Source of the DNA: Pecten maximus
Lineage: Eukaryota
Length of the DNA: 64,000 bases
Direction of reading: 5' to 3'
Assembly: GCF_902652985.1 (NCBI RefSeq)
Contig: NC_047024.1
Coordinates: forward strand, 15,748,001 to 15,812,000
Of the stretch, positions 22,401 to 25,400 are shown piece after piece. Made by a program: the position numbers. Within the stretch, counting starts at the first letter, position 1. Every line of letters starts with the position of its first letter.

Positions 22401-25400
22401 CTCACATGAAATAGAATAGTTCCCAATGAGATACTGATATCGAATCCACTTTTAAGGTCTTAACTCAAATATTTGAAGTATTTTTGTCTTCCGCCAAAAC
22501 AGTGTATACGTAAAAAGGCGTATGTTCCCAACAGAAAATTAACCGACTTCTCTCCTCTTGTCTGTGCTTCAATTTTTCGTATGTTTTACGAAAATGTGCA
22601 GATATGAAGACTGTGAACAATGTGGACCGGACCATGATATCATCTCTTATTCTATATGACGATACAGAAAATTTACAGTCCGGCATATTTTTCCCACATT
22701 TTGACTTTGAGGTATTTGATTCCTGCCATTTAGGACATATGGATGCTAAATGTTTCACTCTTAGTTTTGATACTGCCCAAGTCTTCAGACAGTAAATGGT
22801 TAGTAATACACAGACGAATGTTGTCAATAAACACCCACATTGTATAGTGGTTAAGTTCTCGCTGATATGACCGGGTGTCTTGATTTGAGGACATGTTGTT
22901 ATCTCGATTTTACCTTGATTTACCTGGCGATAACCTTGTTTTTTAAGCCTCGTTTTATTCATCCTGGCTTAGAATTGTGTTAGGTTCAGTTTGCCAGTAT
23001 TTAAGTATGTGTCTGTCGGAATTTCCTGTTGATTGCTTAAGATATGGTCTGAGAATTCTAAGGTCTCTTTCCTTATATTGAGCTCTTGTCTTTTAAAGGT
23101 GTTTTTAATATAGTTAATATTTGTGAAGAATGTCGGAGGAGTTTGAGGACAAGGTTAAACACTACAGGGACATGGGGAAGACGGCCTTCGTCATTGGATA
23201 TACGGGGGAGTGTGGGAAGGAGCTAGTCAAAGCCTTGTCTAAAAATAGAATATTTAACAAAGTTGTCCTCATTGGTCGTCGGAAAGTGGAGCTGAACCCT
23301 GACCCCGGACCAGAGTTTGTAAGTATTAACGATATATATAGAACTGAACTCTGACCCCGGACCAGAGTTTGTAAGTATAAATTATATATACAGAGTTGAA
23401 TTCTGACCCCGGACCAGAGTTTGTAAGTATAAATTATATATACAGAGTTGAATTCTGACCCCGGACCAGAGTTTGTAAGTATAAATTATATATACAGAGT
23501 TGAATTCTGACCCCGGACCAGAGTTTGTAAGTATAAATTATATACAGAGAAATTTAACATGTGTCTCCATTGAAGCCATACATATTTCACTTCTGTAGAT
23601 AAAAGTTTGGAATTCACAATTCACCGAACAAAGTGCAAGATACCAATATATTAATCTCAAGAGTGATACTGTTACGATATTAGCATTTTTAGAAAAAAAA
23701 GTTTTAGAAAATGAATTAAGTTAGATATAGTAGAAAAAAAATTATACTGCACCGTTCAACTAGTTCGTCTTCCTAGGACTCGACAGTGATGTTAGGGACA
23801 TCACACAGCTGTTTAAGTCCTTCCAGGACTCGTAAGTGATGTTAGGGAAATCGTACAGCTGTTTAAGTCCTTCTAGGACTCGTAAGTGATGTTAGGGGAA
23901 TCGTACAGCTGTTTCATCCTTCTAGGACTCGACAGTGATGTTAGGGACATCATACAGCTATTTAGTCCTTCAAGGTCTCGTCAGTGATGTTAGGGACATC
24001 ATACAGCTGTTTAGTCCTTCTAGGACTCGTCAGTGATGTTAGAGACATCACATTGCTGTTTCGTCCTTCTAGGACTCGTCAGTGATGTTAGAGACATCAT
24101 ACAGCTGTTTAGTCCTTCTAGGACACGTCAGTGATGTTAGGGACATCGCATTGCTTTTTCGTCCTTCTAGGACTCGTCAGTGATGTTAGAGACACCATAC
24201 ATCTGTAAAATCTTTCTAGGACTCGTCAGTAATGCTAAGGGTCCCAAGTATTCATGATTGAAAGCTACCAAAAGCAAGATCGAAATAGATCATACAAATT
24301 TCCAAACCTGGATTGGTAGGCGAAAAAGACCAATAATTCAATAAATTTCAATACATTTCATCAATTTCAATATTGAATTTCAAAATAGCATAATGTATAC
24401 TTATATAATCTGAACCAAGCCACTAATGGAGTTAATCAAAACATGACAAGTAGGTTACGTTACATCTCAAGGACCGAAACATCTACCACCTGTAATATCA
24501 ATGCTTATCCCAAGCGATATGTCACGATATCGTCCCTGTGTCAGGAATTGCTTTTTTTAAGCTATTGCCAATAATTTGTGAAGGTAAGTTAGATCGTGTT
24601 GATGTTGATTACGAATTAGTAAGGCAAATCGTTCATAAACCAAGAAAGCTCTAAATTAAAGAAAAATCCTATTACGGCTCTGTGAAATAGGTTTGTAGCG
24701 CGAACATAATTCTTTCATAGATTATACTCCAAAAGTACCTAAATATCCATTATGAAACCATACTCATTATAGATTTTTTTTTATCATTTTTCACTTGTTC
24801 ACTTTTTTTCAAAATTCTAACAAAAACACCAACTTGAGAACTCCCTATACCACAGAGGCATATGATGATATAGCTAACCACGATGTTTATATTACCTATA
24901 TGCGAAATTACAATAATCTTTTATTGTTGTCAACAGGAACAGAAAATTGTTGATTATGACAAACTGGAGGAACACACGGAGGCGTTTCAAGGATGCGAAG
25001 TTGGGTACTGTTGTTTGGGGACTACTAAAGCTAAAGCGGCAGGAAGGGTAATGCACACAATGATATGTGTTACGTCATGAACATATGTTGTGAAAATTTT
25101 TAGACGAATCATCGCCAGGGTTTGGTTTAGTATGTTAAACATCCTATCAAAAGCTAAGGTAATTTAATTACGACCTCCCCTGTGTCAAATATGGTTTGGT
25201 TTGGTTTAGTATTATTTAACGTCCTATCAAAAGCTAAGGTCATTTAAGGACGACCTCCTCTGTGTCAAATATGGTTTGGTTTGGTTTAGTATTATTTAAC
25301 GTCCTATCAAAAGCTAAGGTAATTTAATTATGACCTTCCCTGTGTGCAAGATTGATGCAAGTAGCGTGCGTGTTTGTGTCTGGGATGTTGCTCTTTGTTT

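What the first reader, a model, noticed from the sequence alone, without database searches (positions are those of the whole stretch)
23764..24240. Second copy of the hammerhead satellite, antisense in an HTATIP2 intron and largely inactivated
Seen: the same 49-bp unit and linker, 10 copies, on the opposite strand ~9 kb away with no evident shared flanks. It is not at the equivalent position of the gene triplication. Most units have lost G12 or the CUGA motif, and only ~24055-24105 keeps a full fold. Inference: the unit disperses already in arrayed form, so it is a mobile family rather than a one-off expansion. The antisense orientation would spare the host pre-mRNA from cleavage.
Basis: partly seen in the sequence, partly recalled or inferred. 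Interest (0 to 1): 0.7.

Follow-up and report, generated by a model that had tools for sequence, protein, structure and literature searches.

The report
Decayed second hammerhead-ribozyme satellite array
A scallop gene intron holds a worn-out, back-to-front second copy of a tiny 49-base tandem repeat whose every unit is a complete self-cutting hammerhead RNA motif; the copy is real but looks like a neutral relic rather than a working element.

Summary
Window 23755-24246 (- strand) is a 10-unit array of a 49-bp repeat, 82-87% identical to the 16-unit array at 13744-14519 (+). Each unit is a whole hammerhead ribozyme. Rfam finds hammerhead matches only in these two arrays. The window is scallop (Pectinidae) DNA, not human. 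Array B lies antisense in intron 1 of the third of three tandem HTATIP2/TIP30-like genes. The other two copies have no unit at that place, and the flanks of A and B share nothing. Only one B unit (24051-24108) keeps both core and fold, against 8 of 16 in A.

Core and non-core positions in B decay at the same rate. Dead variants were re-duplicated in place. B's changes drift towards the intron's base composition. So B looks like a neutral relic. Seeding as an array is not shown (shared variants 11 against 8.0 expected, P=0.11). All four satellite families with a second array in this window have it inverted, which points to a general DNA-level process. The antisense argument rests on a single case. 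A solo core relic at ~36.55 kb does suggest a dispersed family. The unusual feature is the unit size: 49 bp against 150-450 bp for known animal hammerhead repeats.

The parts
23755..24246 (-). Array B: 10 units (eight of 49 bp, two of 50 bp) of the hammerhead satellite, most with a dead core
24051..24108 (-). Unit B04 with its upstream GUA cleavage site: the only B unit with an intact core and a three-helix fold (helix III reduced to 5 bp)
   Evidence: Hammerhead_3, 37.0 bits; minimum-energy fold -15.2 kcal/mol, hammerhead junction
24149..24206 (-). Unit B02: core letters intact, but helix III is weakened and the minimum-energy fold is not a hammerhead. The site at its 3' end has G at position 17.
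13744..14519 (+). Array A: 16 units, 8 with an intact core. Both ends fall at the predicted cleavage-site phase.
36524..36585 (+). Solo decayed relative of the unit, colinear with it. It keeps the CUGACGAGUCC and ACGAAAC core blocks but not helix III.
23130..23318 (+). Coding exon 1 of HTATIP2-like gene copy 3 (matches TIP30 residues 12-58)
23319..24933 (+). Intron 1 of copy 3, which holds array B. Bases 23551-24872 have no counterpart in copies 1 and 2.
24934..25044 (+). Coding exon 2 of copy 3 (matches TIP30 residues 66-100); the start coordinate is approximate
23299..23544 (+). 52-bp tandem repeat (4.7 copies) that reiterates the end of exon 1 with its GTAAGT donor, about 210 bp upstream of array B

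Best explanation
Array B is a decaying relic of a tandem-repeat family whose 49-nt unit is a complete hammerhead ribozyme and nothing more.

Anatomy of the unit: a 6-bp helix I closed by a 5-nt loop; the CUGACGA core; a 4-5-bp helix II (GUCC..GGAC); the GAAA core; then the palindrome ACAGCUGU followed by A.

How the family would work (inferred): in a multimeric transcript read in the ribozyme sense, the palindromes of neighbouring units pair into an 8-bp helix III. Each intact unit can then cleave after GUA and release 49-nt monomers. The same unit can also be read as a type I hammerhead with a 2-bp helix III and a palindromic AGCU loop. That is the weak-helix-III, dimer-dependent design described for animal hammerheads.

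Array B itself (shown): it lies on the strand opposite to the HTATIP2-like gene copy 3, inside intron 1. Eight of its 10 units have lost an essential core base. One further unit keeps the core letters but not the fold.

Array B itself (inferred): it evolves neutrally, has grown in place by unequal exchange or slippage that copied already-dead units, and has no function of its own. I think it most likely reached this place through a DNA-level relocation or inverted duplication of array material. The same kind of event has produced inverted second arrays for three unrelated, ribozyme-free satellites in this window. I think this more likely than ribozyme-dependent retroposition, but the route is not settled.
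For: Identity as a hammerhead:
- Rfam matches in both arrays.
- Core pattern found 11 times against 0.04 expected.
- The minimum-energy folds of A08, A09, B04 and B07 are the three-helix junction.
- 88% of pair cells are paired, against 20-54% when the partners are slid.

Decay of B:
- Per-unit core table.
- Distinct variants in core against non-core: 10 against 21 in B (p=0.69) and 9 against 29 in A (p=0.59), with 14 of 49 positions being core.
- 14 of 31 distinct substitutions in B are to T on the ribozyme strand, that is to A on the gene's sense strand. The intron's sense strand is 36-41% A.

Growth in place:
- B02 is 96% identical to B04 (shared GCAAUG ending), B03 94% to B05 (shared G12U), and B08 94% to B09 (shared G5U, G12U and a 1-nt insertion).

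General DNA-level process:
- All 4 of the 4 families with a second array have it inverted, among 14 tandem-repeat families examined.
- A and B lie only about 9 kb apart.
- No target-site duplication and no terminal inverted repeats were found at either array. By eye there is no A-rich tail after array B in the ribozyme orientation.

Gene context:
- for the exon blocks.
- for the exon-by-exon matches to TIP30.
- All five coding exons of copy 3 are open.
Against: - No covariation support for the helices. The observed values do not exceed shuffles (117-207 of 500 shuffles reach them), so the structure rests on conservation and on the Rfam models.
- No B match reaches an Rfam gathering score. In A, one of 12 hammerhead matches does.
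- The most recently amplified A variant (A11-A14) has a non-hammerhead minimum-energy fold.
- The flanks give no positive trace of a DNA-level duplication either.
- Array A begins and ends within 1 nt of the predicted cleavage site under six scoring schemes. Integration of a self-cleaved multimer RNA would predict exactly that, and a DNA-level origin would not. A possible degenerate partial unit just upstream blurs the 5' end by about 6 nt (my reading).
- The lower core integrity in B than in A is not significant: 8 of 16 against 1 of 10 gives p=0.087, and counting distinct sequences only, 4 of 12 against 1 of 10 gives p=0.32.
- Neutrality is inferred from small counts.
Confidence: 0.5

Rival explanations
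1. Retrozyme-like retroposition. A multimeric, ribozyme-processed (or circularised and rolling-circle-copied) RNA of the 49-nt unit was reverse transcribed by a retrotransposon enzyme (Penelope-like or LINE) and inserted as a ready-made array. Array B is such an insertion that has since decayed.
For: - Animal type I hammerhead tandem repeats are described as non-LTR retrozymes that spread through circular RNA (PMC7229834 and PMC7761336; passages read).
- Array A's two ends fall at unit positions 49 and 1, which is the cleavage site, under all six scoring schemes.
- Three hammerhead-core loci lie within 64 kb, one of them a solo unit.
- A and B share no flanks.
- B is absent from the paralogous introns.
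Against: - B's own ends are too degenerate to phase: the start falls at unit phase 6-12 and the end at unit position 40 or 5.
- No target-site duplication was found, and by eye there is no tail.
- No Penelope-like ORF is in the window. The only reverse-transcriptase trace is a weak RVT_1 fragment at 11539-11802 (E=0.0018, below the cut-off).
- Variants shared between A and B are not above chance (P=0.11).
- Three ribozyme-free satellites show the same inverted-pair pattern.
- The 49-bp unit is far below the 150-450-bp range reported for such elements.
Confidence: 0.3
2. The arrays are the central repeats of a non-autonomous DNA transposon (Helentron/HINE type), the known carrier of short satellite-like arrays in oyster genomes.
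For: - In Crassostrea gigas the most abundant short arrays are carried by Cg_HINE elements with element-specific flanks (PMC7492417; passages read).
- The window is crowded with short arrays.
Against: - Such elements have 50-100-bp conserved left and right flanks with sub-terminal inverted repeats.
- The flanks of A and B share nothing in any orientation.
- No convincing inverted repeats bracket either array. The best are 15 nt at 87% and 23 nt at 83% complementarity.
Confidence: 0.07
3. The antisense orientation and the inactivation are selected. Sense insertions in introns are purged because they cut the pre-mRNA. Alternatively, the intronic antisense copy is kept as a source of RNA complementary to ribozyme-sense transcripts such as those of array A.
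For: - The ribozyme strand is opposite to the gene.
- In Xenopus, retrozymes are depleted from introns relative to intergenic DNA (preprint 10.64898/2026.07.22.740005, section 13, read).
- A and B would give transcripts that are 82-87% complementary if A is transcribed on the + strand.
Against: - This is a single case.
- Core and non-core positions in B change at the same rate (p=0.69).
- B drifts towards the intron's composition.
- That preprint does not use the words 'orientation' or 'antisense' (0 occurrences each), so no published bias is known to me.
Confidence: 0.06
4. The hammerhead likeness is a chance property of an ordinary satellite and the RNA never cleaves.
For: - No covariation above shuffles.
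- Most Rfam scores are below gathering.
- Half or more of the units have core changes.
Against: - 11 core-pattern matches against 0.04 expected.
- One match above the curated Hammerhead_1 threshold, and E-values down to 4.5e-7.
- The consensus carries all 14 core positions I scored, plus three helices in the right places.
Confidence: 0.03

Closest known systems
Metazoan non-LTR retrozymes: tandem repeats with type I hammerheads in coral, mussel and axolotl (Cervera and de la Pena 2020, PMC7229834; passages read)
   Same: - Head-to-tail repeats with one hammerhead per unit.
- A canonical GUCC..GGAC helix II and a CUGAYGA core.
- A weak or palindromic helix III.
- G+C of 0.43-0.47, close to the low G+C reported for these repeats (<45%, below 50%).
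- Present in a bivalve.
   Different: - The unit is 49 bp, with no cargo sequence between ribozymes. Reported units are 150-450 bp, and 350-390 bp in the mussel.
- Expression and circular RNA are untested here.
Classical hammerhead satellites: newt satellite 2, Schistosoma Sm-alpha, Dolichopoda pDo500 (named in PMC6765202 and PMC3088659; unit sizes are from my recall)
   Same: Satellite DNA whose transcripts carry a self-cleaving hammerhead. In the newt the hammerhead was proposed to act only as a dimer (Forster 1988, title seen in the reference list of PMC6765202; PMC4209133).
   Different: Those units are several hundred bp (recalled). Here the ribozyme is the whole unit and helix I is closed by its own loop.
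Minimal hammerheads of Penelope-like elements (Cervera and de la Pena 2014, PMC4209133, passages read; Lunse et al. 2017, not held, seen only as a citation)
   Same: A palindromic helix III or loop 3, so that two neighbouring copies pair into an extended helix III and act as a dimer.
   Different: - The Penelope-type motifs have a long helix II (7-8 bp), a short helix I (4-5 bp) and an unpaired base before helix II, and they sit in pseudo-LTRs next to an RT-endonuclease ORF.
- Here helix II is 4-5 bp and helix I is 6 bp.
- No such ORF is in the window.
Helentron/HINE-borne satellite-like arrays of oysters (PMC7492417, passages read)
   Same: Short arrays of tandem repeats scattered through gene-rich DNA of a bivalve.
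   Different: The conserved flanks and sub-terminal inverted repeats are absent here. The oyster monomers studied were 100-500 bp.

Membership tests
Hammerhead ribozyme (Rfam clan CL00010) | Conserved core: C3 U4 G5 A6 N7 G8 A9, G12 A13 A14, the A15.1-U16.1 pair, and H (not G) at position 17 | tested here: met
   Met by the consensus, by B04 and by B02 (letters only), so 2 of 10 in array B. Met by 8 of 16 units in array A. The other 8 B units carry G5U, A6U, A9U, G12U or other core changes.
Hammerhead ribozyme (Rfam clan CL00010) | Three helices meeting at the core | tested here: met
   The minimum-energy folds of A08, A09, B04 and B07 are the three-way junction. B02, B05, A04 and A11 fold otherwise (8 units folded). 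88% of pair cells are paired across 22 distinct rows.
Hammerhead ribozyme (Rfam clan CL00010) | Score at or above Rfam's curated gathering threshold | tested here: inconclusive
   Array A: 1 match reaches it (13896-13939, Hammerhead_1, 35.8 against 34). Array B: none does; the best are 37.0 against 48.5 (Hammerhead_3) and 32.8 against 34 (Hammerhead_1, a unit with G12U).
Hammerhead ribozyme (Rfam clan CL00010) | Compensatory base changes that support the helices | tested here: not met
   3 pairs show a change on both sides, against 2.1 in shuffles (167 of 500 shuffles reach it). The covariation score is 0.129 against 0.123 (117 of 500).
Hammerhead ribozyme (Rfam clan CL00010) | Site-specific self-cleavage | not testable with these tools
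   Needs in vitro transcription of two or more units.
Metazoan non-LTR retrozyme | Type I hammerhead repeated head to tail in multiple copies | tested here: met
   16 and 10 units. Hammerhead_1 matches.
Metazoan non-LTR retrozyme | Monomer of about 150-450 bp that carries sequence besides the ribozyme | tested here: not met
   Period 49. The whole unit aligns to the 45-54-position Rfam hammerhead models. The size range is taken from PMC7229834.
Metazoan non-LTR retrozyme | Accumulates as circular and linear monomer RNA | not testable with these tools
   No transcript data were available.
Penelope-like element pseudo-LTR hammerhead | Lies in a terminal repeat next to an RT plus GIY-YIG ORF | tested here: not met
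   Pfam scan of 59 translated stretches in two calls (12, 47). There was no GIY-YIG hit, and only a sub-threshold RVT_1 fragment at 11539-11802 (E=0.0018).
Penelope-like element pseudo-LTR hammerhead | Long helix II (7-8 bp), short helix I (4-5 bp), helix III almost absent | tested here: not met
   Helix II is 4-5 bp and helix I is 6 bp. Helix III is a 2-bp stem with an AGCU loop, or 8 bp between neighbouring units. The criteria are from PMC4209133.
Helentron/HINE-carried satellite array | Array-specific conserved left and right flanks (50-100 bp) with sub-terminal inverted repeats | tested here: not met
   No flank similarity between A and B. No convincing bracketing inverted repeats. With only two arrays the test is weak.

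The most novel reading that the evidence does not exclude
The 49-nt unit is the smallest self-contained 'retrozyme': a ribozyme with no cargo. Multimeric transcripts would cut themselves into 49-nt monomers, possibly circularised. The multimers or circles would then be reverse transcribed and inserted as ready-made arrays. Array A, whose ends fall exactly at the cleavage site, would be a recent insertion. Array B would be an old antisense insertion in an intron, and the 36.55-kb motif a solo relic. Animal hammerhead mobile elements could then shrink to the bare ribozyme, about one third of the smallest unit reported.
Probability: 0.15. Interest if true: 0.75.

Novelty: new variant of a known kind. 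Interest (0 to 1): 0.4.

Why it matters
Tandem hammerhead repeats in animals are understood as small retroelements that travel as circular RNAs. All described units carry a few hundred bases besides the ribozyme. A family whose unit is only the ribozyme would set a lower size limit for such elements. It would also offer a very simple system for asking whether ribozyme activity is needed for spread.

Array B shows what happens to a copy once it is no longer under any such constraint. Dead units keep multiplying by ordinary array dynamics, so array growth is uncoupled from catalysis.

For the scan, the finding as stated (a second, decayed copy) is mostly ordinary. The interest lies in the family, not in this copy.

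Tried and rejected
1. Shared-flank and inverted-duplication test: BLAST and local alignment against shuffles found nothing.

2. Target-site duplication: only a 5-mer (TTGTG) near array A and none at B. I rejected this as evidence.

3. Terminal inverted repeats around either array: only weak pairs.

4. Aligning intron 1 of the three gene copies to find an empty site: the introns are too diverged. Only the exon-proximal blocks match.

5. Covariation: no signal above shuffles.

6. Shared-polymorphism test for seeding as an array: not significant.

7. Penelope-like element nearby: not found.

8. Pfam naming of the gene exon by exon: only a weak NAD-binding hit. The PDB sequence search exon by exon did name it. 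The joined spliced model was not built or searched.

9. Literature:
- 'hammerhead' plus 'scallop' returned shark papers.
- 'hammerhead ribozyme' plus 'scallop' returned 1 unrelated paper.
- 'hammerhead ribozyme' plus 'tandem repeats' plus 'bivalve' matched 2 papers, of which 1 was listed, and it does not describe this repeat.
- The search with scallop genus names was swamped by unrelated papers.
- 'hammerhead ribozyme' plus 'minisatellite' returned 7 papers, none on short ribozyme-only arrays.
- Lunse et al. [quoted passage not shown]
- No supplementary files were opened. The supplementary figures of PMC7229834 and PMC4209133 could list mollusc hammerhead families or short arrays that I did not see.

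10. Genome-wide mapping, orthologous loci and RNA evidence could not be attempted.
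Full report
**What is there**

The stretch 23755-24246 is a tandem array of a 49-bp unit.
- Tandem Repeats Finder gives 23773-24234, 9.4 copies, 86% matches.
- My parse gives 10 units on the - strand, eight of 49 bp and two of 50 bp.
- A profile built from all units recovers exactly 16 units in array A (13744-14519, + strand) and 10 in array B, each with E<=1.5e-11. Seven weak hits lie elsewhere, the best with E=0.0062 (33 hits in all).
- A and B match each other on opposite strands at 81-87% identity over up to 490 bp.

**The unit is a hammerhead ribozyme**

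Read 5'-3' on the ribozyme strand, the unit has these parts:
- UGAUGU-CCCUA-ACAUCA, which forms helix I with its loop;
- CUGACGA, the first core block;
- GUCC-UAGAA-GGAC, which forms helix II;
- GAA, the second core block;
- the palindrome ACAGCUGU, followed by A.

Database and fold evidence:
- Rfam places one unit of A above the curated Hammerhead_1 threshold (35.8 against 34 bits).
- It gives 12 hammerhead matches in A and 4 in B.
- It finds none anywhere else in the window (at gathering score, at E<=0.1).
- The core pattern CTGANGAG..CGAAA occurs 11 times against 0.04 expected by shuffling.
- With the last 9 nt of the preceding unit attached, units A08, A09, B04 and B07 have the three-helix junction as their minimum-energy fold. 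Units A04, A11, B02 and B05 do not (8 units folded).

The unit can be read in two ways. The palindromes of neighbouring units can pair into an 8-bp helix III, which is the type III reading. Alternatively one unit forms a 2-bp helix III with an AGCU loop, which is the type I reading. Published animal hammerheads with this second design are described as acting as dimers (PMC4209133, passages read).

There is no covariation support. Pairing is 88.0% against 87.7% in shuffles, and 117-207 of 500 shuffles reach each observed measure. The sliding control drops to 20-54% paired. The structure therefore rests on conservation and on the Rfam models.

**Where it lies**

The window is scallop DNA. A 430-residue SOCS-box ORF at 33718-35010 (-) is 88%, 86% and 85% identical to proteins of Mizuhopecten, Argopecten and Ylistrum. 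I do not take it for human.

Three tandem copies of one gene lie on the + strand, with exon blocks at about 8.3-11.4, 17.6-21.2 and 23.1-29.5 kb. I searched copy 3 exon by exon. Its exons match the TIP30/HTATIP2 structure 2bka colinearly:
- exon 1 matches residues 12-58;
- exon 2 matches residues 66-100;
- exon 3 matches residues 102-147;
- exon 5 matches residues 170-235.

Exon 4 is open as well. I did not build or search the joined spliced model.

Array B lies between exons 1 and 2 of copy 3, on the opposite strand. Array A lies between copies 1 and 2, on the gene strand. Intron 1 of copies 1 and 2 has no unit. Bases 23551-24872 of copy 3 have no counterpart in the other copies. The introns are too diverged to define an empty site.

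**State of the units**

Array A has 8 of 16 intact cores: A04, A08, A09, A10 and A11-A14. The last four are identical to one another, and A09 equals A10.

Array B:
- G12 is changed in B01, B03, B05, B06, B08 and B09.
- G5 is changed in B08 and B09.
- A6 is changed in B07 and B10.
- A9 is changed in B03.
- Position 17 is G at three junctions.
- B04 is the only unit with an intact core, a good upstream site and the right fold. Its helix III is cut to 5 bp.
- B02 keeps the core letters, but its minimum-energy fold is not a hammerhead.

The difference between A and B is not significant: p=0.087, or p=0.32 when identical units are counted once.

**Is the decay neutral?**

- Distinct variants fall on the 14 core positions as often as expected from 14 of 49 positions. 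Array B has 10 core against 21 non-core (p=0.69), and array A has 9 against 29 (p=0.59).
- In B, 14 of 31 distinct substitutions are to T on the ribozyme strand, which is A on the gene's sense strand. The surrounding intron is 36-41% A on that strand.
- Dead variants were copied in place. B02 and B04 share the GCAAUG ending, and B03 and B05 share G12U, so the block B02-B03 resembles B04-B05. B08 and B09 share G5U, G12U and an inserted base.

Array growth here is thus uncoupled from catalysis.

**How did it get there?**

The flanks of A and B share nothing in any orientation. BLAST finds nothing, and in 8 comparisons none exceeds shuffles. An old local inverted duplication with its flanks included is therefore not visible. 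There is no target-site duplication and there are no bracketing inverted repeats. By eye there is no A-rich tail after array B in the ribozyme orientation.

The window holds no Penelope-like ORF. It has only a sub-threshold RVT_1 fragment at 11539-11802, which looks LINE-like to me.

Units do not sort by array. Mean identity is 85.2% within A, 81.6% within B and 82.0% between them. Variants shared by both arrays number 11 against 8.0 expected (P=0.11). Seeding by a multi-unit piece is therefore neither shown nor excluded.

Two observations pull in opposite directions.
- Among 14 tandem-repeat families in the window, 4 have a second array, and in all 4 it is on the opposite strand. Three of these families have no ribozyme. 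A general DNA-level process that relocates or inverts array material in this region is thus sufficient.
- Array A begins and ends at unit positions 49 and 1, which is the predicted cleavage site, under six scoring schemes. Integration of a self-cleaved multimer would predict that. B's ends are too worn to phase.

A solo, decayed unit at about 36524-36585 (+) is colinear with the unit. It keeps CUGACGAGUCC and ACGAAAC but is no longer recognised by Rfam. It is a third locus within 64 kb, so the family is probably dispersed, and not only as arrays.

**Comparison with what is known**

The closest described things are the animal non-LTR retrozymes and the classical hammerhead satellites. Their units are 150-450 bp, and 350-390 bp in a mussel (PMC7229834; PMC7761336).

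Penelope-type minimal hammerheads share the palindromic helix III but differ in helix lengths and in context.

Oyster short arrays ride on Helentron-type elements with fixed flanks (PMC7492417). Such flanks are absent here.

A 2026 preprint reports that retrozymes are depleted from introns in Xenopus. It does not use the words 'orientation' or 'antisense'.

My searches of the held library found no description of a ribozyme-only unit of about 49 bp, and none of hammerheads in scallops. Two key papers are not held, and I opened no supplements.

**Verdict**

What is new is the variant: the unit is the bare ribozyme.

Genome-wide mapping, orthologous loci and RNA evidence stayed unchecked, because no eukaryotic genome or transcript collection was available.

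Noticed in passing
window 36524-36585 (+): A solo, decayed copy of the hammerhead unit. It keeps the CUGACGAGUCC and ACGAAAC blocks and a helix-I-like hairpin, but has no helix III. It gets no Rfam match even at E<=10.
   Followed up: partly
window 1-1550 vs 2616-3361; 3356-4366 vs 4358-6150; 25119-25345 vs 43175-43601: Three other satellite families (20-bp, 25-bp and 80/69-bp units) also occur as two arrays on opposite strands. The two 25-bp arrays abut head to head, and that junction produces spurious miRNA-like Rfam hits at about 4300-4400.
   Followed up: partly
window 23299-23544 (+): A 52-bp tandem repeat (4.7 copies, 96% matches) reiterates the last bases of exon 1 of HTATIP2-like copy 3 together with its GTAAGT splice donor. 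This gives several candidate donors in a row.
   Followed up: no
window 13744 and 14519: Array A starts and ends within 1 nt of the predicted ribozyme cleavage site and holds exactly 16 units. The result is robust to six alignment scoring schemes. A possible degenerate partial unit just upstream blurs the 5' end by about 6 nt.
   Followed up: partly
window ~18113-18440 (copy 2 intron 1), relatives at 31320-32184: A MITE-like element with long inverted arms sits in intron 1 of gene copy 2. Related copies lie about 13 kb downstream.
   Followed up: no
window 11539-11802 (+): An 87-residue open frame has a weak reverse-transcriptase match (RVT_1, E=0.0018, below the cut-off). By eye its motif looks LINE-like. 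It lies just downstream of gene copy 1.
   Followed up: no
window 48747-48848, both strands: A let-7-family match appears on both strands, below the gathering score (42.2 and 40.9 against 53.5 bits). It is most likely a palindromic hairpin of a repeat rather than a let-7 gene.
   Followed up: no
window 33718-35010 (-): A single-exon 430-residue ORF with a C-terminal SOCS box is 85-88% identical to uncharacterised proteins of three scallop species. I used it to place the window in Pectinidae.
   Followed up: partly
window 14225-14420 (units A11-A14): The four youngest, identical units of array A carry two wobble changes in helix I. Their minimum-energy fold is not the hammerhead, so the most recent amplification in A may also be of a poorly active variant.
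   Followed up: no
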